Positions 9,760 to 28,481 are shown, numbered from the stretch's first letter. The stretch: DNA of 32,000 nucleotides from Nitrosopumilaceae archaeon (GCA_965208905.1 OZ242365.1:1327902-1359901), one strand, 5' to 3'. Program-made: numbers and translations. The notes: generated from the letters alone by a model not told the origin.

Positions 9760-9790
9760 CAGTGTGCGCTTTGTCTGTGGCTGTCCGTTG

Positions 9791-9840
9791 GGAACTGGTG
9801 CATCTTGGTGACCTAGTGTGTGGTGGTGCGTGGGTGACCT
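9791..9840. repeat. IS6-element terminal inverted repeat (transposase-distal end)
   Basis: Its reverse complement is 46/50 identical to 13343-13392. All four mismatches fall in a 7-nt patch (acacact versus gtacaac) between two AGGTCACC direct repeats. Confidence 0.8.
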
Positions 9841-9881
9841 GAGTTGAATTACTCAAATTAAAATGAAATGAAAAGGGGGAT

Positions 9882-11126
9882 TTATGCTGTGGATTTAGTT
9901 GCGGCTTGAATGAGTGTCATCCATTTGTTGTTACCTTCAACGGTAATACCTGCGGCCTCTGCTGGGGTTATTTGATTCGGTAATCCCAAGTGGGGTTTTA
10001 CAAAATTGTGATATAATCGCAGTCCAGAGATTATGCCAGAGTCTTCACGCTTAAGGCCACGGCACACTTTCTCTCTATGTCGCAGTGTTGCTCCGTTGAA
10101 TGATTCCATTTGGTTGTTATGATGTATGCCGTCAAACGCCACATCATGAATGTGTTCTGTATCTTTGTGTAGGAAGTTCTTTGCCTTGTATTGTTGCTTC
10201 CATGCATGATGGAAGTTAGCCGCTTTATCACTGATTAATGTGGTTGGGACTTTGCCTGTTACTTTTTTGGCTTGTTTAAACATGGGTGCCACATCATCAT
10301 TGCCCTTGTGTTCTGCTACCATCTTGGCTATCCAGAAGCGTGTCTCACTGTCTAGCATGGCGAATAGGTACTTTCTATTACCCTTGATTTTCAGATATAA
10401 CTCATCGGTACGCCATTGTTCACCAACTTGGGGTTTAATCTTGTCAACGAAGGTTTCCATCAGTTCTGCGTATTGTTTGCCCCATCGTTGTATGGTAGTG
10501 TGTACTACTGTAATACCAACCATCTTGAGTGTATTGGCCACCTTCCGTGAGGATAATCCACTAAACAGGAGATCTACTGCTTGAGTGATATGTTCAGGTG
10601 ATGCCTGCTTCTTTTCAAATCCTAGGTTTTGGATAAATCTCCTGCCACACGTCCTGCACCCGAACTGTTGTTTGCCACGCTTAATACCCTTCTTGATAAT
10701 ATCAGTTGAGTCACAGAATTTGCATTTTGTAAGGTCAACAACCTTGATAGTAGTGGTAACTTCCTCTTGGACGGCTGCCCTCATTCGCTTGCTAATTTCG
10801 ATTGCATGAGCGTGCTTGCATACAACACCCCTGTACATTGAATCGGGACAGGAACAAACCCATCCTGATTCTGTATGTATCACCTCATAGACTTTACTAG
10901 AGGATTGACTTCTTACAGTATAGGTTGTATCATCTATTCTGGTTATCTGATTAGGCTTGCCTGCTATCTGCGCACCCCGTGTGATTCTAGCCGCCTGACC
11001 GGGGCTATGGTTCTTATGGGGTGATAAGATAGTAGGCTCAGAGTGCAATTTGCTCTTCATTGGGATGGTCGAGATCCCTCTGACTTTCTTTTCATCATCG
11101 CCATACTTTGTTATTGTTTTATTCAT
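9882..11126 (-). CDS. IS6-family DDE transposase with N-terminal SWIM and zinc-ribbon fingers
   Basis: WRTDELYLKIKG..YLFAMLD, LISDKAANF and HHNNQMESFNGATLRHREKVCRGLK parallel the IS26 Tnp26 D, D and E regions. SWIM motif is CSCPDSMYRGVVCKHAH. Zinc ribbon is CKFC...CRTC. Confidence 0.85.
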   Translation of the reverse strand: MNKTITKYGDDEKKVRGISTIPMKSKLHSEPTILSPHKNHSPGQAARITRGAQIAGKPNQITRIDDTTYTVRSQSSSKVYEVIHTESGWVCSCPDSMYRGVVCKHAHAIEISKRMRAAVQEEVTTTIKVVDLTKCKFCDSTDIIKKGIKRGKQQFGCRTCGRRFIQNLGFEKKQASPEHITQAVDLLFSGLSSRKVANTLKMVGITVVHTTIQRWGKQYAELMETFVDKIKPQVGEQWRTDELYLKIKGNRKYLFAMLDSETRFWIAKMVAEHKGNDDVAPMFKQAKKVTGKVPTTLISDKAANFHHAWKQQYKAKNFLHKDTEHIHDVAFDGIHHNNQMESFNGATLRHREKVCRGLKREDSGIISGLRLYHNFVKPHLGLPNQITPAEAAGITVEGNNKWMTLIQAATKSTA

Positions 11127-11204: not shown

Positions 11205-11393
11205 ATGACGCGATGGAAAAAGAACGAGACAGAGTTCAGAGTCAAGATGCACCATTATAAGAACAGGGACGGCTCCGGCACATCAAGTTGCCGGATTCCC
11301 AGTCCTATAATTAACTACATGGGAAAGCCCAACGAATTGATATTTGTGATCAATAATAAGACGGGGGAGGTAGTCGTAAGTGCAGGTGACTAA
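11205..11393 (+). CDS. small AbrB/SpoVT-like (swapped-hairpin) protein, candidate R-M controller
   Basis: 62 aa. The C-terminal half SCRIPSPIINYMGKPNELIFVINNKTGEVVVSA fits the AbrB-type pattern (.IP..i...g....l.f.i....g.v.v). It overlaps the methyltransferase start by 14 nt. Confidence 0.4.
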   Translation: MTRWKKNETEFRVKMHHYKNRDGSGTSSCRIPSPIINYMGKPNELIFVINNKTGEVVVSAGD

Positions 11394-12441
11394 AACACTG
11401 GCGTATGAACCAGATGCCGTATCTGACTTTGACCTGCTTATGGGCGATTCGGCAGACGTACTGACACGATTTCCGGATAATTCGATCAACTGCACCGTCA
11501 CGTCCCCACCGTACTGGGGACAACGCGAGTATGACACAAAAGACAGCATCGGACATGAAGGTTCGTTTGATGAATACATGCAACACTTGATATGCGTGTT
11601 TGACCAAGTGTATAGGGTAACGGCAAAAGATGGGTCGTTGTGGCTCAACATCGGGGACAGATACCACAACAAGAATCTCATGGGTATGCCTTGGAGGGTC
11701 GCGCTTGCCCTGAAGGATCGGGGATGGATACTGCGCAATGACATAATTTGGAACAAGGTACGCATGACTCAGAGCGCAAAGGACAGGCTCCGTGACCTGC
11801 ACGAGTATGTGTTTCACTTCGTCAAGAATCCAAAATATTACTATAACAGGAAGGCTATACTGATCAAGCACGACGAGAAACCCAAAAGACGTAACGGTAG
11901 ACTTGTGTCAATCACAGGTACAAGTGGGATCCGTTACAGGGAACAGATACGACTGTCAACGCATCTCTCAGACACGGAAAAACAAAACGCAGTTACGGCA
12001 TTGGACAATACACTACACGACATGGCAGACGGCAAGATTGTGGATTTTCGCATGGCCATACGCGGACAACAAAGAACGTCACATGGTTCCAGTGAAAAGA
12101 TCAGTGGTAGAGCAAAAGAGATAGAAAAGTACGGATTCTATGTCATATCGCAGAGTTCGGAGGGATACATGCCTACCGACTTGTGGAGTATCGTACCGGA
12201 AGACACACACCGAAAAGACATACACTGCGCGGTATATCCAACTACCCTCTTGGAGATCCCGATAAAGGCGACATGTCCACCGGGAGGACTCGTACTAGAT
12301 CCGTTTACGGGAACTGGTACTACTATAGTGGCCGCCCTCAAGCACGGCAAGCGTGGTATAGGCATAGACGTGAGTAGCGCTTATCTTACACATGCAGAAA
12401 ACAGGATAAAGACATTCCAGCAGACGGGACTAGAATGTTGA
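11380..12441 (+). CDS. beta-class N4/N6 DNA methyltransferase (N6_N4_Mtase family), probably m4C
   Basis: Motif IV TVTSPPYW is near the N-terminus and motif I VLDPFTGTGTT near the C-terminus, which is the beta order. SPPY is typical of N4-cytosine enzymes. The start is GTG. Confidence 0.9.
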   Translation: MQVTKTLAYEPDAVSDFDLLMGDSADVLTRFPDNSINCTVTSPPYWGQREYDTKDSIGHEGSFDEYMQHLICVFDQVYRVTAKDGSLWLNIGDRYHNKNLMGMPWRVALALKDRGWILRNDIIWNKVRMTQSAKDRLRDLHEYVFHFVKNPKYYYNRKAILIKHDEKPKRRNGRLVSITGTSGIRYREQIRLSTHLSDTEKQNAVTALDNTLHDMADGKIVDFRMAIRGQQRTSHGSSEKISGRAKEIEKYGFYVISQSSEGYMPTDLWSIVPEDTHRKDIHCAVYPTTLLEIPIKATCPPGGLVLDPFTGTGTTIVAALKHGKRGIGIDVSSAYLTHAENRIKTFQQTGLEC

Positions 12442-13275
12442 GACCGGATCACTTTTGTTTATTTTTGCCCCTATGATTTTTTTGGCGTCCTCATAGTTGA
12501 TGAGCAGGTTACCATCAACTGCAAACGAGAACAAGAGATCAACCCACCTCGTGGCCATAATCTTCTTTCTGCGTATGCGGTATCGTTTATCTTCTTCTAC
12601 AAGTGAGTACAGGAAAAACATGAATGTCTCAGTAGAGTAGGACTTGATCTCATGCGTTTGTATCTTGAATTTCGATGTGAACTGCTCCCACAACTCGTCC
12701 TGCATGACGGCTATATATGGCATCTTCCATTCGTCGAACAACTGTCCCTTGAAGATAAACTGTGGTAGAAATCCCTTGAAGGACGCAAGCGTATTTAACC
12801 CAAATGTGTAACTTTTTTTGAGCCTATCATTTAACAGGTCATCTATCGCAGTCGCAAATGATCCCGTACCCGTTGTGGCATCGGACTGTATCTCTACCCC
12901 TATGAACCTGTTTGGGTCTCTGACCGGTGTTAATATCCAGTCAAGATTACCGTAATCAAATCTCTCGTTGTCTGTCTTCTTTGCCAGTTTGACTTCGTTG
13001 CGTGCGTCAGTTTGTACCTCGGATCCCCAAATAAAGTCTCGTATTTCGTGCAGTATCTTATAATCGTCCTCATAAAATCGCCGCGGGCAGATGATCCTGT
13101 TTCTGTCTCCCAGACATGCAGAACAGTTGCCGTATTTCGATGCAGTTCGGTTGGGCTTGTCACACTGGACGATGCGCCTGTCAAACGGACACCCATAATC
13201 GCGGTTGCGAAAGCGGGCCTTGGCCACGTCTGAATCGAATTTTTCGCCAAACGCCTCCAACTGTCTATTTGTCAT
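12430..13275 (-). CDS. type II restriction endonuclease, NotI-like
   Basis: N-terminal Cys cluster is CPF..(8)..C..(12)..CSAC..(8)..CPRRF. The core LDWILTPV...IGVEIQSDATTGTGS parallels NotI FDWTLVEV...GVLEIQTMDFHGS. It converges on the methyltransferase with a 12-bp 3' overlap. Confidence 0.7.
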   Translation of the reverse strand: MTNRQLEAFGEKFDSDVAKARFRNRDYGCPFDRRIVQCDKPNRTASKYGNCSACLGDRNRIICPRRFYEDDYKILHEIRDFIWGSEVQTDARNEVKLAKKTDNERFDYGNLDWILTPVRDPNRFIGVEIQSDATTGTGSFATAIDDLLNDRLKKSYTFGLNTLASFKGFLPQFIFKGQLFDEWKMPYIAVMQDELWEQFTSKFKIQTHEIKSYSTETFMFFLYSLVEEDKRYRIRRKKIMATRWVDLLFSFAVDGNLLINYEDAKKIIGAKINKSDPVSTF

Positions 13276-16810: not shown

Positions 16811-16883
16811 TATGTTTGCTATATGCTGATGTGATGTATCGTAAATGATGTAGAACCCATACGACTATCATCTCACCAATTAT

Positions 16884-18362
16884 GGGAATTATATAGATAA
16901 GAAAACAGCCACAGCTGCGCGCTTATCCCTTTTCTGACGACTTTTCTGTATGGAGTGGAGCATGGCGGGTGTTGGCTTGTAGCCCTCCTTGTGCCCCGGC
17001 CGTCTTAGGACGACGTTCCCCGCCGCCCGATACAGAATGTTCCAGGCGGCATTGACATCCGCGTGGAACACTCTGGTACAGTTAGTGCAAATGAACTTAT
17101 CGCGTGATATACGCGACTCTGAGTCTACGTGACCACACACATGGCACGTCTGGCTCGTATATTTGGCCGATGCCCCCAACAGCGGTATGTTGTGCATCTC
17201 ACACCACTGCGCAAGCTTGCGCAGGAACTCCCCAACACGGTTCTCCCGCATTGAACGGTTCATGGCGCGTTTGTAATTCCCGCCATGGGTGGTCATATCC
17301 TTTACGGAGAGCGATTCGACCACGACTGCGTCCACACCATTAGTTATCTGCGCAATCGTCTGATTTATCGTGTTCGCGGCTATGTTGTTGGCCTTCCTGT
17401 ATAGCCGCTTAATTTGGTCATTCAATACACACCACTTCCGGCCATGCCGTACCTTATGGTCACGAAGGTTCTTGAGCGCGTCAATCTCCCGCAGGATTGC
17501 TCTATGGCGTGTGTTGTGTATTGTAACATTGCCATTTGTGTCGACGGTAACTGCCAGGTGTTTGCCGCCCACATCAACACCACGTATTACACCTGTATTG
17601 CGGTGCGGCTCGACCGGGACGCGCACGGCGATATGTATCTCAAACATGTGGTCGGACGGCTTTGTATGCTTGTCCACCCGTTTGGTGACATCAACTATCT
17701 TGAATGAGCGCATGTCCCATGATACATCGATGGGCTTGGCGGTCTCCACCGTACCATATCCGGGGATATGTATGGTGTGCTCACCTTTTCGTACAGGCGG
17801 TGTAACGGAACAAAGTATGATGCGGCCGTCTTTGCGGCGGTACGGCGCGTGGTCTGAGTTGTCATCTATAACCCTTCTACATGCGGCGGAGGCATCCTGT
17901 ATGGCGCCCCTGCCAAACGATGCGGGGCACTCGCGCAGCCATGTATGTTTGGCGCGCCACCCCGTAAGCTGCTTGAACATGCCATACTTTAATGCCCTCT
18001 TTGACGGCCCAAAATCATATGTATGGTAGTCATCGTCCAGCGTACCTGATGTAAAACCACCTAGTTTGCCCGGCAGTTTGAATGGCTGAAGGATGTCCAC
18101 TACCACCCTCTCCATATATTCGCCACCAAACAAATACTCTGATACGGCGCGGTTGTACACATATCTTGACGCATGATTCGTGCGGTGCGCCCACTCTACA
18201 AACAACACATCCTTTCGTAGCGGTACCTTGACTATCCGTATCATGATGTGTAATACGGTATACTGGTATTTAAGGAAGAATGTGGCGCATAGGCATGAAA
18301 TCCATGGTGGTTTAGGCGTTAACCAAAACCTCCGCAGGGGTGTTCTAATCTATATAATTCCC
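16884..18362 (-). mobile_element. TnpB-only element bounded by terminal inverted repeats and an 8-bp target-site duplication
   Basis: 23-bp TIRs at 16884-16906 and 18340-18362 match at 21/23, and the outer 15 bp GGGAATTATATAGAT are perfect. They are directly abutted by CCAATTAT at 16876-16883 and 18363-18370. Confidence 0.8.
16889..18244 (-). CDS. tnpB: TnpB (OrfB) RuvC-like RNA-guided endonuclease family protein
   Basis: RuvC motifs are GVDVGGKHLAV (D), AVVVESLSV (E) and FHADVNAAWNI (D). Zinc ribbon is CHVCGH...CTNC. The N-terminus has the YVYNRAV pattern. Confidence 0.9.
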   Translation of the reverse strand: MIRIVKVPLRKDVLFVEWAHRTNHASRYVYNRAVSEYLFGGEYMERVVVDILQPFKLPGKLGGFTSGTLDDDYHTYDFGPSKRALKYGMFKQLTGWRAKHTWLRECPASFGRGAIQDASAACRRVIDDNSDHAPYRRKDGRIILCSVTPPVRKGEHTIHIPGYGTVETAKPIDVSWDMRSFKIVDVTKRVDKHTKPSDHMFEIHIAVRVPVEPHRNTGVIRGVDVGGKHLAVTVDTNGNVTIHNTRHRAILREIDALKNLRDHKVRHGRKWCVLNDQIKRLYRKANNIAANTINQTIAQITNGVDAVVVESLSVKDMTTHGGNYKRAMNRSMRENRVGEFLRKLAQWCEMHNIPLLGASAKYTSQTCHVCGHVDSESRISRDKFICTNCTRVFHADVNAAWNILYRAAGNVVLRRPGHKEGYKPTPAMLHSIQKSRQKRDKRAAVAVFLSI

Positions 18363-19413: not shown

Positions 19414-19730
19414 TACTTTCTCACATCTCCCTCAAGTAAACCGGAGCCAAGGTGTACCCTGTCTATATGTTTTGATAACAACTCGGCAGTTTTAAAAGTT
19501 GATCCACAATACGGACATACAAAATGCTCCATAATTTCCAGGTATATGTTTGATAATAAATAATTTCTGATTAATCTACAACGTTTCATAATTCGCATGC
19601 CTTTCGACAGGTCGTCTGGTTCCATGGCTGGCAGTGGCCGGCGGGACGATATAAGGACGCGGCGCGTTTCTTGGACATACACCAGGTTACAAATATCATA
19701 GGCCTTCTGCAGATTACTAGAATAATCCAC
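19410..19730 (-). CDS. small C2H2 zinc-finger protein (start codon uncertain)
   Basis: FVCPYCGSTFKTAELLSKHIDRVH fits C-X2-C-X3-F-X5-L-X2-H-X4-H exactly. The stop overlaps the HD gene start by 4 nt. The ORF opens with GTG, and internal ATGs are possible starts. Confidence 0.6.
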   Translation of the reverse strand: MDYSSNLQKAYDICNLVYVQETRRVLISSRRPLPAMEPDDLSKGMRIMKRCRLIRNYLLSNIYLEIMEHFVCPYCGSTFKTAELLSKHIDRVHLGSGLLEGDVRKY

Positions 19731-19775
19731 TAGGATCGCTCACTAGAATAACCCAATAGAATCACTAGATATCAT
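19715..19775. promoter_or_regulatory. 13-bp periodic (C/T)A(C/A)TAG repeat array upstream of the copper oxidase gene
   Basis: tactagaataatc / cactaggatcgct / cactagaataacc / caatagaat / cactagatatcat start at 19715, 19728, 19741, 19754 and 19763. Confidence 0.5.
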
Positions 19776-19782
19776 TATAAAA
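19775..19782 (+). promoter_or_regulatory. TATA-like box of the copper oxidase gene
   Basis: ttataaaa is centred about 27 nt upstream of ATG 19805. Confidence 0.4.
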
Positions 19783-19804
19783 CTCAAAGTATTGCTCACC
19801 TATA

Positions 19805-22800
19805 ATGATTAAATTAATGCTAGTAGCCATTATTACATTCTCACTGGCCGGAGTATCAGTACTTGCTTACTATGATACTCCCCAGAGCAATGCCGTGCCA
19901 CAGAGTGCAGGCATTCCGTTTGCAGAAGCTTCCACCCTACCCTCTGTTTCTCATGAAATATGGATAGAGGCAGTAAAAATGCCCGATGGGATGTACGCAT
20001 ACAAACTTGCCGCATATGACATGGATGGCACATCTGTGATCGACAGGTTTAGCACTAAACCATCAATTCCCGGTCCGACTCTGATCTTTACCGAGGGCGA
20101 TGAGGTTACGCTGCACCTGACAAATTTAGCCTGCAAGGATGATTATCTCATAGGAAGTAATGGACCGAACGAGAATTCTTATCTTGGAATTCACGTTCAC
20201 GGCGTGCATTATTCTATAGAAGATGATGCAAGCTACCAGCGAATGCATATGACCGGCACCACCGCTGAATCCGCCGCAAGCTGTGGCGATTCGGTGACTT
20301 ACGAATGGGATGTCGGCGTTGGAACTGCTGGAACATGGCCTTATCACGATCACACATTCAGCAAGAATGAAATCGGCTCCGAAGATCTGGGACTGTTCGG
20401 GACTGTCATTGTAAACCCCGCAAGCGGGACGGTTTCTGGTTTTGTCAATGGCGAGACTGGAACGATAGATTCAATACCCGTTGAAGACATCGAAAAGGAA
20501 TTCATCCTTTGGATGGTTTCCTCCAAAGTTTTGGGTACAAGTGTCTTTTATGGTATGGAAGTTGATAATGACGTAAACAATGATGGTACCATAACCACAG
20601 ACGACATCAAGCAGACCCCGTTGTGGACCAATCCTCCGCTCTACGCAACCGACGGTGCCAAAGTCAGATACCATGTACTTGGCATAGGTGATGAAACACA
20701 CGCATTCCACCTTCACGGCCACCGCTGGGTTGAAGCTACCGGAGGCGCAGCCGACATCATCGATGTAAAGGAGATATCGCCACTGCAGCGCCACACATTC
20801 GTCATTGAAGCGAGCGATAACGGAAATGAGCACACAGGTACGGAAGGTTGGATGTATCACTGTCATGTGTTTGAACACATGGAAGCTGGTATGAACGGAA
20901 TGATGATGGTAATCGACGGTAGCGATACGCTGCCGGAGATCGGCGCCGTCTTTACACTGAGCGATGAGCCGGGGACTTGGATGAAAACCTTGGATTCCGG
21001 GTTTACCGACGTACTTGACGATGCCTTAGCCGCTTCCACCCTGACCATCTCTGATGAGGCAGGTGAAGAAACGGTAATTCCATCACTGAACGCTAACCCG
21101 GAGGAGGGTACAGGATTCCCGCTGGATTATCTAGGCGTATTGTCTCCTGGATTCGCGGATTCTGAGGGCCGCTCCTTGGCGGTTATCGAGACCGGCCAAA
21201 CCGTACTGTTTGGCATGAAAGACTCGCAAACAAAACACACCATCACTGCGCTAATCTATCCGACTTCTGCCGCTTCGGATGGGCCGATTGGCGGCAACGG
21301 CGTATTGACGCAAGCCGGCATAGGACTCTTTGATGCCCAGACTGGTATCCGAGGCTCCACATTCATCACTGATGATGATGGATTTGCAGCCACGCTTGAC
21401 GAGCCCGGACTGTACGTGTTTGTCTGCAAGATACACCCGTATATGCTCAGCGCAGTCATAGTTGACGACCCCGAAACAAACATACATCTGGGTAATGTCA
21501 ACAAGGATTCCGGCGGCACAACAATTCCACTATTGGACCTCTCTGACAACCTGACCATTCTGACCCGCACCGGCACGTCCTTCCCGACAACGGTGTCCAT
21601 AAGTCCAGACGATCCGTTGATCGGACTGGTTACATCCTTGGTCAAGACATTCTACGCGATCACCGACCCGTCCAACTGGAAGGATTACACCCAAGATACA
21701 TGGAATGTAAACCTTCCACCAGCACCATTGACTACAAACAACAACGATGTATGGATCTTCTTGGTCGATGGTGATACCGTGGGTACCATTGCGGGATTGA
21801 CGGCTCCGTCCAACCCCGACACCGGAACAGTCGCGTCAACCATCCTGCCTCTAGGCTTGGACAGCTCTATGTCTATCAGCGCAGATGTCCCGCAAGTCAG
21901 CGGAGTAGGCGAGGTTTGGGTGAATACGCAGTTTGAGGCCACAGTGGGCAAGAACCTGCTGGGCACGCACGCGGACAAGCCAGGTACCATAACTGTGATT
22001 AACGCAGATGACTGGAGCATTGAGCGCAAGCTTTCCTTGCCTGAACTTGGGACGAACGATCCACAAAGATTGGCCACGAGTTTGGGCATGAACAACCCCC
22101 ATAATCTCTGGGCCGATGCCAAAAACGAGGTTATCTACCAGACTCAGTGGTTTGACAAACGGATGGTTGCATTCGAACGCGAATCCGGAGACGTAATCAA
22201 GGACATGTTTGTTGGTGAATCTCCATCACACGTTATGACTGCTCCTGCGGGAAGCGGTGAAGGAAACATTTACCTTGCCATGAACGGCGAGGAACAAATT
22301 ACAGTGGTAGATCCCAACACCTTTGATATCATTCAACAGATATCTACCGGTCCGCGTTCACACCCACACGGTCATTGGATATCCAGTGACGGCTCAAAAA
22401 TCGTAACTCCAGACTTTATAGGACTGAAGGCATCCATCATAGATCTTGAAGAAGGTACCGTGACCAGTGCTGCACATGCGGATGGTTCCACCCTGTTGAT
22501 TACGCCGATTGCAACCGGCATGATGGGTGATGTTTCAAAGTTCTATACCGCCGATTTCCTAGGAAACACCCTATCGGTAATTGATCTTAGTACAAACACC
22601 ATTACAAAACAAATAGACATAATTGCCGAAACTGGTGGCATAGTTGGACTTCCAATCCAGACGCCGGTTAGTCCGGATGATAAATGGATGGTTACTGCAC
22701 ACACACTTGGCACAAAGATCACCGTCGTTGATACTCGTACGGATGAAATTGTTGCCACTCTTCCATGTGATCCCGAATGCCATGGTGTTCAGTGGGGCGC

Positions 22801-23164
22801 AAAAAAGAACGGAGGATACTTGGCATACGTGTCCAGTAAATTCTCCAATGCTCTGATTGTCGTCGATCCTGACCCTAATGGAAACGGTAGCGCCCTTGAC
22901 GCAAGGGTTATTGGGAAGATTGTTCTCACAGAGCAGTTTGATACAGACATGGATGACCGAGTATACGATCACGCCGGAATGGGAGGACAAGGTCTCCTTA
23001 CAGTTCCAAATGTTTATGCGGGATGGATTCAGCAAACTATCGAAGCATGCTCAGATGGACAAGGAGAGCTCAGCGAACAACTGTGTGGAGAAGAGATGGT
23101 CGCATTCTTAGAATCACTAGAAGACGAACACTTGGACCCATTAAATCCTGCTAACGACGGCTAA
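19805..23164 (+). CDS. secreted fusion protein: two-domain multicopper oxidase + amicyanin-like cupredoxin + YVTN-type beta-propeller
   Basis: N-terminal signal/anchor MIKLMLVAIITFSLAGVSVLA. MCO motifs are HVHGVH, WPYHDH, HAFHLHGH and HCHVFEHMEAGM. The type-1 Cu site is KHT...FVCKIHPYM. The C-terminal roughly 480 aa carry repeated blade motifs (P.HG.WISSDGSKIV, TLSVIDLSTNTI, KITVVDTRTDEIV, ALIVVDPDP). Confidence 0.9.
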   Translation: MIKLMLVAIITFSLAGVSVLAYYDTPQSNAVPQSAGIPFAEASTLPSVSHEIWIEAVKMPDGMYAYKLAAYDMDGTSVIDRFSTKPSIPGPTLIFTEGDEVTLHLTNLACKDDYLIGSNGPNENSYLGIHVHGVHYSIEDDASYQRMHMTGTTAESAASCGDSVTYEWDVGVGTAGTWPYHDHTFSKNEIGSEDLGLFGTVIVNPASGTVSGFVNGETGTIDSIPVEDIEKEFILWMVSSKVLGTSVFYGMEVDNDVNNDGTITTDDIKQTPLWTNPPLYATDGAKVRYHVLGIGDETHAFHLHGHRWVEATGGAADIIDVKEISPLQRHTFVIEASDNGNEHTGTEGWMYHCHVFEHMEAGMNGMMMVIDGSDTLPEIGAVFTLSDEPGTWMKTLDSGFTDVLDDALAASTLTISDEAGEETVIPSLNANPEEGTGFPLDYLGVLSPGFADSEGRSLAVIETGQTVLFGMKDSQTKHTITALIYPTSAASDGPIGGNGVLTQAGIGLFDAQTGIRGSTFITDDDGFAATLDEPGLYVFVCKIHPYMLSAVIVDDPETNIHLGNVNKDSGGTTIPLLDLSDNLTILTRTGTSFPTTVSISPDDPLIGLVTSLVKTFYAITDPSNWKDYTQDTWNVNLPPAPLTTNNNDVWIFLVDGDTVGTIAGLTAPSNPDTGTVASTILPLGLDSSMSISADVPQVSGVGEVWVNTQFEATVGKNLLGTHADKPGTITVINADDWSIERKLSLPELGTNDPQRLATSLGMNNPHNLWADAKNEVIYQTQWFDKRMVAFERESGDVIKDMFVGESPSHVMTAPAGSGEGNIYLAMNGEEQITVVDPNTFDIIQQISTGPRSHPHGHWISSDGSKIVTPDFIGLKASIIDLEEGTVTSAAHADGSTLLITPIATGMMGDVSKFYTADFLGNTLSVIDLSTNTITKQIDIIAETGGIVGLPIQTPVSPDDKWMVTAHTLGTKITVVDTRTDEIVATLPCDPECHGVQWGAKKNGGYLAYVSSKFSNALIVVDPDPNGNGSALDARVIGKIVLTEQFDTDMDDRVYDHAGMGGQGLLTVPNVYAGWIQQTIEACSDGQGELSEQLCGEEMVAFLESLEDEHLDPLNPANDG

Positions 23165-23179
23165 ACAATACAACAATAA

Positions 23180-23193
23180 TTTTTTTGTTTTTT
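23180..23193 (+). terminator. oligo-T terminator after the copper oxidase gene
   Basis: tttttttgtttttt begins 16 nt after the stop codon. Confidence 0.5.
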
Positions 23194-24765: not shown

Positions 24766-26040
24766 TTGTTGAATCTTGTAGAGAAGATACTGGCCCGGGC
24801 ATCAAAGCGGGATAGTGTATCACCCGGCGATGTGATATTTGCCGATGTGGACAAGGCCATGCTGCATGATGTCTCTGGCCCTGGCGTTATCAAGGTGTTT
24901 GAAAAGCTAAAAAAAAAGGGAATAAAGACCGACAAACTCTGGAACCCCTCAAAAGTCTGGGTGGCTGAAGACCACTTTGTTCCATCTGCAGAGAAGATAT
25001 CTGCGCAAAATATAGTGAAATTATCAAAGTTCACAAAATCATATGGAATCCAACGTCACTACAAGTATGGCATGGGTCAGTATGGCATATGCCACTCTCT
25101 GTCTCATGAGGAAGCACTGGTACTTCCAGGCGAGGTATATGTTGGTGGCGACTCTCACACAAACACCACCGGCGCATTGGGAGCCTTTGCCTGCGGATTG
25201 GGTCATACAGACATGGCATATGTACTGTTACATGGTCGTATATGGTTCCGCGTACCCGAGACCATACTGTTCAAGATAAGTGGTAGCCTACCAAAGAGTG
25301 TGAGCGCCAAGGATGTAATACTGCGCATTATAGGCGATATTGGTACTGACGGTGGCGCATATCGTACAATGCAGTTTGCTGGAGATACAGTATCTAACAT
25401 GTCTGTTGAGGATAGATTGACACTGTGCAACATGACCACCGAAGCCGGAGCAAAAAACGGCATTGTCTCAGCAGACAACAAGACGATACAATACTTGACC
25501 GAGAGAGGAGCCTCATCAATATCTCCAATATATCAAGATGATGATGCAGAGTACTCAGATGTATATGAGTATGATGCAGAGTCTCTTGTACCCGTGGTTG
25601 CAGAACCTTATTCTCCTGAAAATGTAACTCCTGTATCCGAGGCGCCTACAGAAGATTTGGACAAAGCATACATTGGGTCTTGCACAGGTGCCAAATACGA
25701 AGATCTGGTGGCCGCCACCCGCATACTCAAAGGTCGAAAGGTAAAGATTCGCACCGAAGTGTTACCTGCTACAATATCGATATATAGACGTGCTGTAGAG
25801 GGCGGTCTTGTATCTACACTGATGGAGTCTGGCGCCATGGTTGGCCCCCCCACATGTGGTGCATGTTGTGGAGCTCACATGGGTGTACTGGCGGATAAAG
25901 AGGTGTGCATAAGTACTACAAATCGTAACTTCCCTGGTAGGATGGGTCATGTAACGTCACGAACGTATCTGGCCTCACCTGCAGTGGCCGCAGCCTCGGC
26001 AGTGACTGGCCGTATAACTCATCCGGAGGATTTGGATTGA
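24766..26040 (+). CDS. aconitase-family dehydratase large subunit, archaeal type (3-isopropylmalate / homoaconitate dehydratase)
   Basis: NLVEKILA...MLHDVSGP N-terminus. Fe-S ligand contexts are GSCTGAKY and CGACCG. NRNFPGRMG is present. The start is TTG. Confidence 0.9.
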   Translation: MLNLVEKILARASKRDSVSPGDVIFADVDKAMLHDVSGPGVIKVFEKLKKKGIKTDKLWNPSKVWVAEDHFVPSAEKISAQNIVKLSKFTKSYGIQRHYKYGMGQYGICHSLSHEEALVLPGEVYVGGDSHTNTTGALGAFACGLGHTDMAYVLLHGRIWFRVPETILFKISGSLPKSVSAKDVILRIIGDIGTDGGAYRTMQFAGDTVSNMSVEDRLTLCNMTTEAGAKNGIVSADNKTIQYLTERGASSISPIYQDDDAEYSDVYEYDAESLVPVVAEPYSPENVTPVSEAPTEDLDKAYIGSCTGAKYEDLVAATRILKGRKVKIRTEVLPATISIYRRAVEGGLVSTLMESGAMVGPPTCGACCGAHMGVLADKEVCISTTNRNFPGRMGHVTSRTYLASPAVAAASAVTGRITHPEDLD

Positions 26041-26516
26041 GTGGCAAAGTAGTAAAGTATGATCAAGACAATATAGACACCGATGTTATAATCCCTGGTC
26101 AATACCTAAAGATACACGACTATGCGGAGCTGGCCACACATGCAATGGAGGGACTAGACGAGTCCTTTCACTCTAAAAAGGGGACGTATATAGTTGCAGG
26201 TAGGAATTTTGGCTGCGGCTCATCGCGAGAACATGCGCCCATTGCACTATCTGAATCCGGCATAAAAGCAGTCTTAGCACTATCTTTTGCGCGCATATTT
26301 TATAGAAACTCAGTGGATGGAGCATTTCTCCTACCTATAGAGATTGACCAACATACATACAATGAGATATCTGATGGTGATGATATACAAGTCGACATAA
26401 CATCAAACAAGGTAATGAATAATACCACCAAAAAGACATATTCAATAAAACCATTTCCAGATATTATACGAGATATAATAGATGCTGGAGGCTTGTTTGG
26501 GTATGTCCCAAAATAG
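26037..26516 (+). CDS. aconitase-family dehydratase small subunit, archaeal type
   Basis: [13 protein letters not shown] and [14 protein letters not shown]. The TTG start overlaps the upstream stop (TTGA). GGAGGA lies 6 nt upstream. Confidence 0.9.
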
Positions 26517-26517
26517 T

Positions 26518-27924
26518 ATGGCACGTACACTGTTTGAGAAGGTTTGGGATGCACACCAGATAATACCAAAGAGTACTGGTCCATCTTTGATATATATCGA
26601 CAGGCACCTCATACACGAAGTTACATCCCCTCAGGCATTTGATGGACTCAGACTTGCATCTAGACGGGTGCGCCGGCCTGACCTGACCGTGGCCACAGTA
26701 GATCATAACATACCTACAGGCAGACGCGGCCTACCGATACTGGATCAGACCTCATCAGTACAGATAAACACTCTGGAGTCAAACTGCAAAGAATTTGGAA
26801 TAAAACTGTACGGCATGGATAGTCCACAACAGGGTATAGTGCATGTTATTGGCCCTCAACTAGGCATCACACTGCCGGGTAGTACTATTGTATGTGGCGA
26901 CTCACACACATCAACCCATGGAGCCTTTGGTGCATTTGCTCTGGGGATTGGTACGAGTGAGGTGGAGCATGTCTTAGCTACACAGACACTCTGGGTGGTA
27001 AAACCCCGAACATACAAGATTGTAATGAGCGGCCAAACAAGACGTGGTGTTACATCCAAGGATTTGATACTATACATGATACGACATCTGGGTACTGGCG
27101 GTGGCGCCGGCTCTGTCTTTGAGTATATGGGTGATGCCATACGTGGCATGAATATGGAGCAGCGTATGACCATATGCAACATGTCAATAGAGGGAGGAGC
27201 GCGGGCCGGTATGATTGCGCCCGATGACACAACGTATGATTATCTGCGCAATCGCCTTCATACACCACCTAATTTTGAACATATGGTGGATAGATGGAAG
27301 GAGACACTATACACTGATAATGATGCCAAGTTTGATAGATCATTTACCATAAATACGGATAGCGTATCTCCCCAGATATCTTGGGGGACCAACCCCGGCA
27401 TGACATGTGATATAACCGATACCGTTCCAGACCCCATAAACTACTCTGGTGGCGACATAAATCTGGAGCGGGGGGCTCGTCGAGCCTTACAATACATGAA
27501 CCTTGAGCCTGGAACCCCGATGACCGACATCAAGGTGGATAGAGTCTTTATCGGATCATGTACTAATGCCCGTCTACACGATCTTGTGGAAGCATCGGAT
27601 ATCATTCAAGGTGGCCATGTGGCAGAAGGCGTACGCGCCATGGTGGTACCCGGCTCCCAAATGGTCAAAGCGCAGGCAGAAGAGATGGGAATCCATGACA
27701 TATTCATAAATGCCGGCTTTGAATGGCGTAACTCTGGCTGTAGCATGTGTCTAGGCATGAACCCTGACATTCTAGAGCCTGGCCAACGATGTGCTAGTAC
27801 CTCGAACCGTAACTTTGAGGGCAGACAAGGTAGTGGTGGACGTACACACTTGGTAAGCCCGGCCATGGCGGCAGCTGCTGCAATACACGGCAAATTCGTC
27901 GATATACGGGAGTTGATACAATGA
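26518..27924 (+). CDS. leuC: 3-isopropylmalate dehydratase large subunit, bacterial type
   Basis: [13 protein letters not shown]...[34 protein letters not shown] and CSMCLGMN. In-frame ATGs at 26482 and 26503 are alternative starts. Confidence 0.9.
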
Positions 27925-28481
27925 AGCCCTTTGATAATGTCACATCACGCATAACGCCGCTTCCTGACCACAATGTAGATACCGACCAAATAATACCAAA
28001 ACAGTTCCTAAAACTGGTCACCAGAACAGGTTTTGGCAAGTATCTGTTCTTTGATCGTAGAAGTTCTGACTTTGTCCTAGACGATCCAAGATACAAAGGT
28101 TCCAAAATTTTAGTAGCCGGGGATAACTTTGGTTGTGGCTCATCCCGGGAACATGCAGTATGGGCGCTTCAGGACTTTGGCTTTGATGTTGTAATATCTA
28201 CATCGTTTGCGGACATATTTTATAGCAACTGCATAAAAAACGGCGTTCTTCCCATATGCATACCTGATACACAGACACTGTTATCCGAAAAGAATAGCAT
28301 CACTGTAGATCTCCAAAGACAGACTATACAGCATACATCTGGTACAATCCATTTTGAAATTGATCCGCATCACAAGGTGACACTCTTGGAGGGCCTAGAT
28401 GACATATCACGTACACTTCAATATGACGATATGATCACTCTGTTTGAGAAGGACTCGCCGACTCCATCTGTTGTATTATAG
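27921..28481 (+). CDS. leuD: 3-isopropylmalate dehydratase small subunit, bacterial type
   Basis: [12 protein letters not shown] and [21 protein letters not shown] start/stop overlap with leuC. Confidence 0.9.

What the first reader, a model, noticed from the sequence alone, without database searches (positions are those of the whole stretch)
19805..23164. Three-module secreted copper protein: two-domain MCO + amicyanin-like cupredoxin + beta-propeller
Seen: one 1119-aa ORF with a signal/anchor sequence. It carries the four multicopper-oxidase copper motifs (HVHG, HDH, HLHGH, HCHVFEHMEAGM) within the first roughly 375 aa. A separate type-1 copper site follows, with amicyanin-like spacing (CKIHPYM; compare amicyanin CTPHPFM). 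The C-terminal roughly 480 aa form a YVTN-type propeller. Established: two-domain MCOs and small blue copper proteins are abundant in ammonia-oxidising archaea, whose electron transfer is copper-based. MCOs have been proposed as candidates for unassigned steps in that nitrogen-oxidation pathway. Beta-propellers of this repeat type form the substrate-binding or catalytic modules of cd1 nitrite reductase, nitrous oxide reductase and the methylamine dehydrogenase heavy chain; the last of these partners with amicyanin. Inference: fusing an oxidase, a dedicated electron-shuttle cupredoxin and a propeller suggests a self-contained extracytoplasmic redox enzyme. The propeller would bind the substrate or a partner. 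I do not recognise this architecture as a characterised enzyme.
Basis: partly seen in the sequence, partly recalled or inferred. Interest (0 to 1): 0.75.

Follow-up and report, generated by a model that had tools for sequence, protein, structure and literature searches.

The report
Copper oxidase fused to histidine-lined propeller
This archaeal gene encodes one large secreted copper protein that joins an oxygen-reducing oxidase, a small electron-carrier domain and a seven-bladed propeller with a conserved ring of histidines; the same kit, as one or two genes, occurs in ammonia-oxidising archaea, ammonia-oxidising bacteria and methane oxidisers, and its substrate is unknown.

Summary
ORF 19805-23164 (+) encodes 1119 aa. 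It has an N-terminal signal or anchor helix, a SLAC-type two-domain multicopper oxidase (MCO) with all copper ligands, an amicyanin-like type-1 cupredoxin, a folded ~140-aa linker domain and a 7-bladed YVTN-type propeller. It is not an assembly artefact: more than 100 collinear full-length homologues exist, and AlphaFold2 gives a compact model (pTM 0.86).

New findings:
- The propeller carries a family-specific ring of conserved histidines (H766, H809, H855, H857, H993) at the start of the innermost strands. The closest solved propeller lacks them.
- The cupredoxin-propeller pair is an autonomous unit. It stands alone in several phyla and lies directly downstream of a complete MCO gene in methanotrophs.
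- In Nitrosomonas, Nitrosospira and soil AOA, a small and a large MCO subunit have lost complementary halves of the trinuclear-copper ligands. This implies an obligate hetero-oligomer.
- The family appears to be the AOA 'MCO3' lineage. It is strongly induced in N. franklandianus biofilms and in phage-infected N. europaea.

Best reading: a substrate is oxidised at a metal site in the propeller, and electrons are relayed through two type-1 coppers to O2. The substrate is unknown. The gene is accessory; it is a pseudogene in a 96-98% identical relative.

The parts
19775..19782 (+). TATA-box-like element (TTATAAAA). It ends 23 nt before the ATG, which suggests a short-leader or leaderless archaeal transcript.
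   Evidence: Read directly from the sequence. Inference only; no promoter model was run.
19805..23164 (+). Complete ORF of 1119 aa plus stop codon: MCO, cupredoxin, linker domain, propeller.
19805..19870 (+). N-terminal signal peptide or membrane-anchor helix (aa 1-22). A disordered stalk (aa 23-47) follows.
   Evidence: It is the only hydrophobic 19-mer (Kyte-Doolittle 2.26). AF2 predicts a helix at 2-18 and then pLDDT <50 up to residue 44. Split homologues also begin with signal peptides.
19946..20425 (+). MCO cupredoxin domain 1 (aa 48-207). It holds the trinuclear-cluster ligands H130/H132 (HVHG) and H181/H183 (HDH). It has no type-1 site, because the motif is HDH rather than HCH.
   Evidence: Pfam Cu-oxidase_3. 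The ligands are invariant. Matches SLAC.
20426..20929 (+). MCO cupredoxin domain 2 (aa 208-375). Type-1 ligands are H299, C353, H358 and M363. Trinuclear-cluster ligands are H302, H304, H352 and H354.
   Evidence: Pfam Cu-oxidase_2. The alignment to SLAC covers HxFHxHGHRW and HCHxxxHxxxGM. All are invariant.
20930..21472 (+). Cupredoxin unit (aa 376-556). It opens with the conserved SDEPGTW motif (386-392). Its type-1 site is H478, C541, H544 and M547, with amicyanin-like C-x2-H-x2-M spacing.
   Evidence: Alignment to amicyanin. The ligands are invariant in all clades and in stand-alone versions. Pfam Copper-bind is below threshold.
21473..21904 (+). Folded alpha/beta linker domain (aa 557-700) with no family match. 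Conserved residues are L612, D621, W625, D627 and Y628.
   Evidence: AF2 pLDDT is 88-94 here. Conservation. No Pfam or NCBIfam hit.
21905..23029 (+). Seven-bladed YVTN-type beta-propeller (aa 701-1075). Conserved residues sit on the innermost strands of blades 1-3 and 5-7:
- H766 (NPHNLW)
- H809 (SPSHVM)
- H853/H855/H857 (SHPHGHW)
- Q952
- C988/C992/H993 (CDPECHG)
- Q1062 (GGQG)
   Evidence: DSSP gives seven sets of four strands. Foldseek best hit is 1L0Q. Conservation. In 1L0Q the same positions read P-M-G or P-L-G.
23030..23161 (+). C-terminal helical tail (aa 1076-1119) with the conserved pair C1082/C1094, probably a disulfide.
   Evidence: AF2 helices. Cys conservation is 91-94%.
23180..23193 (+). 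Two T-runs (T7 and T6), 16 nt after the stop codon. This looks like an archaeal poly-T terminator.
   Evidence: Read directly from the sequence. Inference.

Best explanation
The gene encodes an extracytoplasmic, modular copper oxidase, either secreted or N-terminally anchored.

Shown:
- A SLAC-type two-domain MCO with a complete ligand set is present. Such MCOs are established to form trimers that build a trinuclear copper cluster between domain 1 of one subunit and domain 2 of the next, where O2 is reduced to water.
- A type-1 cupredoxin with amicyanin-like ligand spacing is present.
- A 7-bladed propeller is present. Its innermost strands carry a family-specific ring of four to six conserved histidines plus two glutamines.

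Inferred:
- The histidine ring at the mouth of the central channel binds a metal centre, most likely copper, where a small substrate is oxidised.
- Electrons pass from that centre to the cupredoxin type-1 copper, then to the MCO type-1 copper, then to the trinuclear cluster, and finally to O2.
- The cupredoxin-propeller pair is the catalytic unit. The MCO is its built-in terminal electron acceptor.
- The MCO-linked forms were recovered almost only from ammonia and methane oxidisers. The substrate is therefore most plausibly a by-product of ammonia co-oxidation (NH2OH, NO or HNO). This is the weakest step.
- The enzyme is accessory and stress- or lifestyle-induced. It is not part of the core ammonia-oxidation pathway.
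For: Architecture and ligands.

Compact multi-domain model: pTM 0.86, with a folded linker domain.

Position of the conserved residues: the seven blades have innermost strands starting at 765, 807, about 853, 901, 948, 992 and 1061. The conserved residues are H766, H809, H855/H857, Q952, H993 and Q1062. Apart from Q952, which closes its strand, they fall within the first residues of the innermost strands of blades 1, 2, 3, 6 and 7, on the D-A-loop face.

The ring is family-specific:
- The closest solved propeller, 1L0Q, has P-M-G or P-L-G at those positions.
- H766, H809, H855 and H993 are kept in nearly all of about 45 full-domain representatives at 50% identity. These include distant amicyanin-propeller proteins of 460-520 aa from Armatimonadota and others.

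The cupredoxin-propeller pair is an autonomous unit:
- It occurs with a signal peptide and intact type-1 ligands but no adjacent MCO in N. gargensis and in Chloroflexota.
- It lies directly downstream of a complete 2dMCO gene in methanotrophs.

O2 reduction is under selection. In AOB and Nitrososphaeraceae the small subunit keeps only the domain-1 ligands, and the large subunit keeps only the domain-2 and type-1 ligands.

There is a precedent for 2dMCO plus pendant type-1 cupredoxin chemistry on NH2OH: Nmar_1354 (PMC11761707).

Distribution: 75 of the 78 retrieved genome loci are named as known ammonia- or methane-oxidiser lineages; the other three carry only higher-rank names.

Expression:
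- The N. europaea pair rises by log2 fold change about 6.15 late in phage infection. It is identified by matching lengths of 339 and 912 aa.
- N. franklandianus NFRAN_2029/2030 rise by log2 fold change 3.16 in biofilm, with TPM 14,073 and 9,353.
Against: - No atomic coordinates were accessible. Convergence of the histidines on the axis is inferred from strand topology and was not measured.
- Nothing shows metal binding.
- Foldseek ranks NosZ only 25th, no better than metal-free lactonase or WD40 propellers. The fold alone therefore gives no link to copper-cluster propellers.
- H853, H857 and the Cys pair vary in distant members.
- An MCO can oxidise small substrates at its own type-1 site, as Nmar_1354 does, so the propeller need not be catalytic.
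- No conserved accessory or maturation genes lie nearby.
- Distribution among AOA is patchy. N. maritimus has no MCO3, and the gene is a pseudogene in a 96-98% identical relative.
- The retrieval patterns favour close relatives, so the association with ammonia and methane oxidisers is not a statistical test.
Confidence: 0.5

Rival explanations
1. The MCO is the only catalytic part. It oxidises its substrate (NH2OH, a metal ion or an envelope phenolic or glycoprotein group) at its own type-1 site. The propeller is a binding or anchoring module that places the enzyme on the S-layer, on the extracellular matrix or on a partner protein. The cupredoxin only extends the electron path.
For: - The nearest solved propeller belongs to an archaeal surface-layer protein (1L0Q).
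- The apparent MCO3 genes are among the most induced in N. franklandianus biofilms. The authors propose cell-surface modification.
- Nmar_1354 shows that a 2dMCO with a pendant cupredoxin is active without any propeller.
Against: - The same unit is conserved in Gram-negative periplasms (AOB, methanotrophs) and in archaea, which share no envelope. It also occurs without any MCO.
- An adhesin does not explain an invariant histidine ring that the S-layer propeller lacks.
- It also does not explain an obligatory type-1 copper domain fused to the propeller in every member.
Confidence: 0.2
2. The protein is a copper-handling enzyme. It would act as a cuprous oxidase or copper-sequestering protein, like CueO with a histidine-rich appendage. 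It would serve organisms with very high copper demand (AMO or pMMO). The histidine ring would bind Cu(I) or Cu(II) as cargo, not as a cofactor.
For: - The hosts recovered with MCO-linked versions are copper-dependent ammonia or methane oxidisers.
- In N. franklandianus the genes rise together with copC/copD.
- MCO1 and MCO4 of N. viennensis respond to copper limitation.
- The Methylocystis locus is preceded by an ECF sigma factor, and a YtkA-family gene lies about 4 kb upstream.
Against: - A cuprous oxidase needs no intermediate type-1 cupredoxin. CueO-type enzymes bind Cu(I) next to their own type-1 site.
- MCO-less cupredoxin-propeller proteins in Chloroflexota, Acidobacteriota and Armatimonadota have no link to AMO or pMMO.
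- No cop genes are adjacent in the window or in the 78 loci.
Confidence: 0.13
3. The protein is a reductase built like nitrous oxide reductase. The propeller would hold a CuZ-like cluster that receives electrons from the cupredoxin and reduces N2O or another N-oxide.
For: - Sub-threshold NCBIfam hits to clade III L-NosZ (E 3e-7 for the query; up to 108 bits in distant relatives).
- NosZ also pairs a histidine-lined 7-bladed propeller with a cupredoxin.
- NosZ appears among the Foldseek hits.
Against: - The score is 29 bits against a cut-off of 700.
- The cupredoxin has one Cys and a type-1 ligand set, not CuA.
- There are 5-6 histidines rather than 7.
- The domain order is reversed.
- No nosDFYL genes are nearby.
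- Fusion to an O2-reducing MCO makes electron flow towards the propeller implausible.
- The L-NosZ hits are explained by generic lactonase/YVTN repeat similarity. The same proteins also hit YncE, hydrazine synthase beta and PQQ_ABC repeats.
Confidence: 0.04
4. The long ORF is an assembly or frameshift artefact that joins separate genes.
For: Split versions do exist in other lineages.
Against: - There are more than 110 independent full-length collinear homologues, including complete genomes.
- Junction residues are invariant.
- AF2 is confident across the junctions.
- In the split lineages the gene boundary falls at a different place (before SDEPGxW) and carries its own signal peptide.
Confidence: 0.01

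Closest known systems
Two-domain 'small' laccases (SLAC-type, type B 2dMCO; e.g. PDB 3CG8, 6RHQ)
   Same: - Residues 48-375 have the same two-cupredoxin fold (Foldseek E 1e-19, TM to target 0.70-0.75).
- The four HxH motifs and the type-1 H-C-H-M set in domain 2 match.
- By analogy the protein should form a trimer with inter-subunit trinuclear clusters.
   Different: - SLACs are stand-alone proteins of about 280-340 aa. Here 745 further residues follow.
- Sequence identity is only 22-26%.
- In the AOB and soil-AOA versions the ligands are divided between two paralogous subunits.
AOA MCO4 / Nmar_1354 (PDB 9CCK): a 2dMCO with a C-terminal 'dangling' type-1 cupredoxin that oxidises NH2OH to HNO (PMC11761707)
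   Same: - Same host group.
- Same idea of a 2dMCO followed by an extra type-1 cupredoxin. In 9CCK that copper sits 13.5 Å from the MCO type-1 copper.
   Different: - Sequence similarity is only weak (E 3.8e-4, domain 1 only).
- MCO4 ends after the cupredoxin and has no propeller.
- The present cupredoxin belongs to a cupredoxin-propeller unit that also exists independently.
AOA 'MCO3' lineage (Kerou 2016 classification, as used in PMC12448741)
   Same: - Genomes reported to hold MCO3 carry members of this family: N. sediminis AR2 (58% identity) and N. franklandus.
- NFRAN_2029 is annotated as an MCO plus the arCOG02562 beta-propeller, next to a second MCO gene. This matches the two-gene form found here.
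   Different: In the text I could read, MCO3 is treated simply as a two-domain MCO. I found no description of the cupredoxin, the histidine-lined propeller, the complementary two-subunit form, or the AOB and methanotroph relatives.
Nitrous oxide reductase NosZ, including clade III L-NosZ. From my own knowledge, also thiocyanate dehydrogenase, a 7-bladed propeller with a His-ligated trinuclear copper site.
   Same: A 7-bladed propeller with histidines on the innermost strands is paired with a cupredoxin-fold electron-transfer domain. It offers a model for how the site could work.
   Different: It fails every membership test: HMM scores, CuA motif, number of histidines, domain order and accessory genes. 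Here electron flow would run away from the propeller, towards O2.
YVTN beta-propeller of the Methanosarcina mazei surface-layer protein (PDB 1L0Q)
   Same: It is the best structural and sequence match for residues 701-1075 (profile E 7.5e-27, Foldseek E 6.7e-20). Blade length and the P-x-G / YVTN repeat register are the same.
   Different: - 1L0Q has no histidine at any of the ring positions.
- It has no cupredoxin.
- It is a structural protein.
Amicyanin with methylamine dehydrogenase
   Same: The Cys-x2-His-x2-Met spacing of the type-1 site matches, and amicyanin is the best cupredoxin hit.
   Different: - The NCBIfam amicyanin score is 13.5 bits against a cut-off of 110.
- No MADH heavy or light chain similarity appeared in any search.

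Membership tests
Two-domain multicopper oxidase, SLAC-type (type B) | Two cupredoxin domains recognised by the Cu-oxidase_3 and Cu-oxidase_2 models above curated thresholds | tested here: met
   31.2 bits against a cut-off of 21, and 31.4 bits against 20.4. PDB phmmer E 7e-18 to 6RHQ. Foldseek E 1.5e-19.
Two-domain multicopper oxidase, SLAC-type (type B) | Eight histidine ligands of the trinuclear cluster in four HxH motifs | tested here: met
   H130/H132, H181/H183, H302/H304 and H352/H354 are all 100% conserved in 105 Nitrosopumilaceae homologues.
Two-domain multicopper oxidase, SLAC-type (type B) | Type-1 copper site (His, Cys, His, Met) in domain 2 only | tested here: met
   H299, C353, H358 and M363 align with the SLAC type-1 ligands. 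Domain 1 reads HDH, not HCH.
Two-domain multicopper oxidase, SLAC-type (type B) | Homotrimer with inter-subunit trinuclear clusters | not testable with these tools
   Only a monomer model could be made. Complementary ligand loss in the two-subunit relatives is indirect support for inter-subunit clusters.
AOA MCO4 (Nmar_1354 type) | Close sequence relationship to Nmar_1354 (PDB 9CCK) | tested here: not met
   E 3.8e-4, 21 bits, domain 1 only. The cupredoxin did not hit 9CCK even at E up to 10.
AOA MCO4 (Nmar_1354 type) | 2dMCO followed by a type-1 cupredoxin as the last domain | tested here: not met
   The cupredoxin is present, but a linker domain and a propeller follow it.
AOA MCO3 lineage | Orthologues in the genomes for which MCO3 is reported, with matching annotation | tested here: met
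   - N. sediminis AR2: P0017/P0018 at 58% identity.
- N. franklandus: P0532, 945 aa, with large-subunit ligand pattern.
- NFRAN_2029 is annotated as MCO plus arCOG02562 beta-propeller, and NFRAN_2030 is an adjacent MCO. Both are labelled MCO3.
- AR2 is reported to contain MCO3.
AOA MCO3 lineage | Placement inside the MCO3 clade of the published MCO phylogeny | not tested
Nitrous oxide reductase (clades I, II and III L-NosZ) | Score at or above the curated NCBIfam cut-offs | tested here: not met
   NF052460 gives 29.2 bits against a cut-off of 700. TIGR04244 and TIGR04246 were not hit by the query.
Nitrous oxide reductase (clades I, II and III L-NosZ) | Binuclear CuA site with two Cys in the cupredoxin domain | tested here: not met
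   There is a single Cys (C541) in a C-x2-H-x2-M type-1 motif, and it aligns with amicyanin.
Nitrous oxide reductase (clades I, II and III L-NosZ) | Seven histidine ligands of CuZ on the propeller | tested here: inconclusive
   Five universally conserved histidines, six in Nitrosopumilaceae. No residue-level structural superposition on NosZ was possible.
Nitrous oxide reductase (clades I, II and III L-NosZ) | Propeller N-terminal to cupredoxin, with nos accessory genes nearby | tested here: not met
   The order is cupredoxin then propeller. Neighbours are housekeeping genes or insertion sequences.
YVTN-type seven-bladed beta-propeller | Seven four-stranded blades, with closest fold and sequence to YVTN propellers | tested here: met
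   DSSP. 1L0Q is the top hit. The TIGR02276 repeat scores 23.7 bits, just under its 27.85 cut-off, in the query. PF21783 YNCE is precomputed for many homologues.
Amicyanin | Equivalog HMM score; type-1 ligand spacing | tested here: not met
   TIGR02657 gives 13.5 bits against a cut-off of 110.2. The ligand spacing and local alignment do match. The domain is amicyanin-like, not an amicyanin.

The most novel reading that the evidence does not exclude
The propeller holds a previously undescribed histidine-ligated copper centre. The cupredoxin-propeller unit would then be a new class of copper enzyme. Wired to a built-in multicopper oxidase in ammonia-oxidising archaea, ammonia-oxidising bacteria and methanotrophs, it would oxidise a reactive nitrogen intermediate (NH2OH, NO or HNO) with O2 as electron acceptor. 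That would make it an enzyme for nitrogen-oxide turnover and N2O/NO emission shared across domains of life.
Probability: 0.18. Interest if true: 0.9.

Novelty: new variant of a known kind. Interest (0 to 1): 0.7.

Why it matters
The enzymes that process hydroxylamine and NO in ammonia-oxidising archaea are still unassigned. So is the enzyme proposed to oxidise NO to nitrite in ammonia-oxidising bacteria. Multicopper oxidases are the standing candidates.

This work shows that one catalogued but uncharacterised MCO lineage is really a three-module machine. Its distinctive part is a type-1 cupredoxin joined to a propeller with a conserved histidine ring. That part is shared by ammonia-oxidising archaea, ammonia-oxidising bacteria and methanotrophs, and it is strongly regulated in two cultured model organisms.

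The work gives concrete targets that can be tested now:
- N. europaea CAD84475 and CAD84476; N. europaea is genetically tractable.
- The small stand-alone cupredoxin-propeller proteins of Methylocystis or N. gargensis, for expression and metal analysis.
- Named histidines for mutagenesis.

If the propeller binds copper, it adds a new member to the very short list of propeller-based copper catalytic sites (NosZ, thiocyanate dehydrogenase, galactose oxidase). If it does not, the protein is still an unusual example of complementary subfunctionalisation of an inter-subunit metal cluster.

Tried and rejected
- **Model coordinates.** They are not exposed. His-His and type-1 to type-1 distances could not be measured.
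- **Structure prediction with alignment A2.** I redid it with sub-sequences of search hits (A3).
- **Literature.** Kerou et al. 2016 (PMC5150414) is not held. My guess that the N. europaea genes are NE0564/NE0565 found no relevant paper; only NE0566 was matched, in unrelated c-di-GMP papers. Searches combining propeller, multicopper oxidase and nitrifier names found no description of this architecture.
- **Conserved neighbours.** Clustering all ORFs of the 78 loci plus the window gave nothing conserved beyond the MCO pair. Two clade-limited exceptions are a LuxR-type response regulator upstream in about 13 AOB loci, and an NHL-repeat protein plus a metallophosphoesterase downstream in Nitrososphaeraceae. 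The NMT1-type ABC transporter upstream in N. sediminis and several other Nitrosopumilus is absent from the window.
- **NosZ membership.** Considered because of the L-NosZ hit, and rejected. The same distant relatives hit YncE, hydrazine synthase beta and PQQ_ABC repeats equally well.
- **MADH heavy chain analogy.** No similarity was found.
- **Genomic context of N. franklandus P0532.** Not on record.
- **tRNA scan of the window.** Empty.

Full report

Yes. The ORF listing gives a single 1119-aa ORF at 19805-23164 on the + strand.

- **MCO.** Pfam places Cu-oxidase_3 on residues 87-206 and Cu-oxidase_2 on 278-370, both above the gathering threshold. The best solved relatives are the two-domain 'small' laccases of Streptomyces (phmmer E about 1e-17; Foldseek E about 1e-19, TM to target 0.70-0.75).
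- **Cupredoxin.** It aligns with amicyanin so that C541, H544 and M547 match Cys92, His95 and Met98. The match is weak (E 0.02).
- **Propeller.** The C-terminal part matches the YVTN propeller of the Methanosarcina S-layer protein 1L0Q (E 6e-15 for the single sequence, 7.5e-27 for a family profile).
- **N-terminus.** The only hydrophobic stretch is residues 2-22.
- **Transcription unit.** A TTATAAAA element ends 23 nt before the ATG, and two T-runs lie just after the stop. The gene therefore looks like its own transcription unit. Its neighbours are unrelated: an HD hydrolase and a C2H2 zinc-finger protein upstream on the other strand, then an RNase H-like gene and cofE downstream.

**2. It is not a fusion artefact.**

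- The protein search returned more than 110 clusters of collinear full-length homologues of 1050-1130 aa at 46-97% identity. They include one in the complete genome of Ca. Nitrosopumilus sediminis.
- Residues around both suspected junctions are invariant (380-395 and 612-628).
- An AlphaFold2 model built from 80 homologues has mean pLDDT 84.8 and pTM 0.86. Confidence is 84-95 across the junctions. A pTM that high for 1119 residues implies a fixed mutual arrangement of the domains; this is an inference.

**3. Anatomy (DSSP plus conservation).**

| Residues | Module |
|---|---|
| 1-22 | Signal or anchor helix |
| 23-47 | Disordered stalk |
| 48-207 | MCO domain 1 |
| 208-375 | MCO domain 2 |
| 376-556 | Cupredoxin unit, opening with the conserved SDEPGxW |
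| 557-700 | Well-folded alpha/beta linker domain with no family match |
| 701-1075 | Seven-bladed propeller |
| 1076-1119 | Helical tail with a conserved Cys pair |

The MCO is of the SLAC type. The type-1 ligands (H299, C353, H358, M363) are in domain 2, and domain 1 reads HDH rather than HCH. This sets it apart from the characterised AOA enzyme Nmar_1354 (MCO4, PDB 9CCK). That protein is a 2dMCO with a pendant type-1 cupredoxin that oxidises NH2OH to HNO (PMC11761707). It matches the query only at E 3.8e-4 over domain 1.

**4. The propeller has a conserved histidine ring.**

In an alignment of 105 homologues the invariant histidines outside the MCO and cupredoxin sites are H766, H809, H853, H855, H857 and H993. 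Also conserved are C988, C992, Q952 and Q1062. Their spacing equals the blade period.

In the models, the innermost strand of each blade starts at 765, 807, about 853, 901, 948, 992 and 1061. These residues therefore lie on the innermost strands of blades 1-3 and 5-7. Apart from Q952, which closes its strand, they fall within the first few residues. That is the mouth of the central channel on the D-A-loop face, where propeller enzymes usually have their active site (established knowledge).

They occupy the 'P-x-G' positions of the YVTN repeat. In the alignment to 1L0Q the same positions read P-M-G, P-K-G and P-L-G. The ring is therefore a derived feature of this family, not a property of the fold.

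An exhaustive profile search of 1.84 billion representatives found 149 proteins below E 1e-30. In nearly all of about 45 representatives covering the whole domain, H766, H809, H855 and H993 are kept, with Q952 and D958 kept in most. P0176 and P0240 are exceptions. H857 and the Cys pair are kept in the roughly 600-1100-aa subfamily and vary in more distant proteins of 460-520 aa.

I could not obtain coordinates. Convergence of the side chains is inferred from topology and was not measured.

**5. Relatives elsewhere: one system, three gene layouts.**

A scan of one genome per GTDB species found 290 relatives, of which 78 loci were kept. ORF analysis and ligand mapping show three layouts.

- **(a) Nitrosopumilaceae and Nitrosarchaeum.** One gene, with all ligands present.
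- **(b) Methanotrophs** (Methylomicrobium, Methylotuvimicrobium, Methylocella, Methylococcales, and Methylocystis rosea). A complete 2dMCO gene of about 325-349 aa (40% identical to query residues 50-373) is followed directly by a cupredoxin-propeller gene of about 605-624 aa. That second gene has its own signal peptide and begins at the TDEPGxWF motif. This is the true split form.
- **(c) Nitrosomonas, Nitrosospira, Nitrosovibrio and soil Nitrososphaeraceae.** A small MCO-like protein of 330-390 aa keeps the four domain-1 histidines but has lost every domain-2 ligand. It is followed by a large MCO-cupredoxin-propeller protein of 900-1190 aa that has lost the domain-1 histidines but keeps the domain-2 trinuclear and type-1 ligands.

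In 2dMCOs the trinuclear cluster is built between domain 1 of one subunit and domain 2 of the next (established knowledge). Layout (c) can therefore only form a cluster at a small/large interface. This implies an obligate hetero-oligomer and shows that O2 reduction is under selection. The N. europaea ATCC 19718 proteins are CAD84476.1 (339 aa) and CAD84475.1 (912 aa), annotated only as multicopper oxidase (domain-containing) proteins.

**6. The cupredoxin-propeller pair is an autonomous unit.**

A search with the Methylomicrobium second gene found 2289 relatives below E 1e-10.

- They come from many methanotroph genera, but also from Ca. Nitrososphaera gargensis, Chloroflexota and Blastocatellia.
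- In N. gargensis and the Chloroflexota MAG there is no MCO gene nearby.
- Still more distant members occur in Armatimonadota, Bacillota and Paceibacterota, and one protein carries a T9SS sorting domain.
- All of those I aligned keep the four type-1 ligands and the core histidine ring, and nearly all begin with a signal peptide.

A propeller that is always fused to a type-1 copper domain is most simply a redox module. In ammonia and methane oxidisers that module has been coupled to an O2-reducing MCO.

**7. Known families.**

- **NosZ.** The NCBIfam hit to clade III L-NosZ (E 3e-7) prompted a check. The query fails every test. The score is 29 bits against a cut-off of 700. The cupredoxin has a single Cys and a type-1 motif instead of CuA. 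There are five or six histidines rather than seven. The domain order is reversed, and there are no nos accessory genes. Distant relatives that score higher on L-NosZ score equally on YncE, hydrazine synthase beta and PQQ_ABC repeats. NosZ ranks only 25th in Foldseek, level with lactonases and WD40 proteins. NosZ, and from my own knowledge thiocyanate dehydrogenase, are models for how a histidine-lined propeller next to a cupredoxin can work. They are not families this protein belongs to.
- **MADH.** No methylamine dehydrogenase chain was hit anywhere.
- **MCO3.** The family appears to be the 'MCO3' lineage of the AOA MCO classification. N. sediminis AR2 is reported to carry MCO3 (PMC12448741) and holds a 58%-identical orthologue. 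N. franklandianus NFRAN_2029 and NFRAN_2030 are labelled MCO3. NFRAN_2029 also carries the arCOG 'beta-propeller repeat containing protein', and the two genes are adjacent. N. franklandus encodes a 945-aa protein with exactly the large-subunit ligand pattern. I found no text that describes the cupredoxin, the propeller, the histidine ring, the complementary subunits or the bacterial relatives.

**8. Expression and dispensability.**

- NFRAN_2029 and NFRAN_2030 rise by log2 fold change 3.16 in biofilms and are very highly expressed (TPM 14,073 and 9,353).
- In N. europaea Nm50, two adjacent 'multicopper oxidase domain-containing' genes of 1020 and 2739 nt rise by log2 fold change about 6.15 late in phage infection. 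Their lengths correspond to 339 and 912 aa, the sizes of the pair found here. An adjacent transcriptional activator and the urea-amidolyase genes rise with them. Identity with the pair is inferred from the matching sizes and annotation.
- N. maritimus has no MCO3.
- In a syntenic Nitrosopumilaceae MAG that is 96-98% identical to the window (L006), the gene has lost 252 bp covering the promoter and first 41 codons. It is also interrupted by an insertion sequence of about 1.6 kb encoding a DDE_3 transposase.
- The gene is therefore accessory and not part of the core ammonia-oxidation pathway.

**9. Mechanism.**

- **Best reading (confidence about 0.5).** A substrate is oxidised at a metal centre, probably copper, held by the histidine ring. 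Electrons pass through the cupredoxin type-1 copper to the MCO type-1 copper and on to the trinuclear cluster, which reduces O2. The ligand sets, the modular evolution and the selection on the O2 site are shown. The metal in the propeller, the direction of electron flow and the substrate are inferred. A nitrogen intermediate (NH2OH, NO or HNO) is favoured only by the host range of the MCO-linked forms and by the Nmar_1354 precedent.
- **Rivals.** A catalytic MCO with a binding or anchoring propeller (0.2); copper handling (0.13); a NosZ-like reductase (0.04); an artefact (0.01).

**10. Verdict.**

- **Already known:** the gene family is catalogued, and its MCO part is ordinary.
- **Apparently new:** the full architecture, the histidine-lined propeller coupled to a type-1 cupredoxin, its independent existence across phyla, and the complementary two-subunit form. 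I file it as a new variant of a known kind.
- **Interest: 0.7.** It offers a concrete, testable candidate for unassigned copper-dependent nitrogen chemistry shared by archaeal and bacterial nitrifiers. Two things temper the score: no metal or activity evidence exists, and the gene is clearly accessory.

Noticed in passing
window 16881-18362 (ORF 16889-18244, minus strand): A TnpB-like gene (OrfB_IS605 plus Cas12f1-like TNB domain) sits in a segment of about 1.48 kb. That segment is absent from the otherwise syntenic, 96-98% identical relative L006. It is therefore a recent IS200/605-family insertion.
   Followed up: partly
L006 6011 and 8611-10220 (corresponding to window 19677-19928 and 22523-22528): In this near-identical Nitrosopumilaceae MAG the MCO-cupredoxin-propeller gene is a pseudogene.
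- 252 bp covering the promoter and first 41 codons are missing.
- An insertion of about 1.6 kb encoding a DDE_3 (IS630-like) transposase interrupts blade 4. A 6-bp overlap suggests a target-site duplication.
   Followed up: yes
window 544-1551, 3002-4132, 9882-11126, 11380-13275: The window is rich in mobile and defence genes:
- a DDE_3 transposase;
- a Fic/DOC protein;
- an IS240/IS6-type DDE transposase;
- a restriction-modification pair, with an N6/N4 DNA methylase overlapping a NotI-like endonuclease.
   Followed up: no
L018-L068 (AOB) and L019-L050, L077 (Nitrososphaeraceae): Adjacent small and large MCO paralogues have lost complementary halves of the trinuclear-copper ligand set. The small subunit keeps domain 1, and the large subunit keeps domain 2 plus the type-1 site. 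This predicts a hetero-oligomer with clusters only at small/large interfaces.
   Followed up: yes
window 20960-20980 (aa 386-392); residues about 45-60 of P0345, P0409, P0446 and others: A strongly conserved [ST]DEPGxW[FM] motif marks the start of the cupredoxin-propeller unit. In split proteins it lies at or within about 25 residues of the predicted signal peptide. Its role is unknown; it could be a ligand, a plug or an interface.
   Followed up: partly
L064; L040 and L041; L036, L066 and L067: Some Nitrosomonas genomes carry several copies of the small-plus-large gene pair:
- two tandem copies in L064;
- two on one contig in 'Bin_1';
- three loci in N. supralitoralis APG5.
   Followed up: no
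about 13 AOB loci, e.g. L020 4821-5564; L026, L028 and related loci: A LuxR-type response regulator lies just upstream of the pair in about 13 AOB loci, and a MalT/AfsR-like regulator of about 1050 aa lies upstream in seven Nitrosomonas loci, mostly of the N. communis group. In N. europaea Nm50 an adjacent 'bacterial transcriptional activator domain' gene is co-induced, with log2 fold change 6.97.
   Followed up: partly
L069 6001-9222; L021 6286-9395: In two Nitrosarchaeum MAG chromosomes the gene is broken into four and two ORFs respectively. These are either frameshifted pseudogenes or long-read assembly errors.
   Followed up: no
window 24766-28481: Two consecutive aconitase-family large/small subunit pairs lie here: 424 plus 159 aa, then 480 plus 186 aa, with short overlaps. 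They are probably isopropylmalate or homoaconitate isomerase paralogues. The 186-aa ORF was not scanned, so its identity as a small subunit is assumed.
   Followed up: no
window 7855-9759 (minus strand): A 634-aa ORF has only weak, sub-threshold Cache-domain and DUF3105 matches. Its function is unknown.
   Followed up: no
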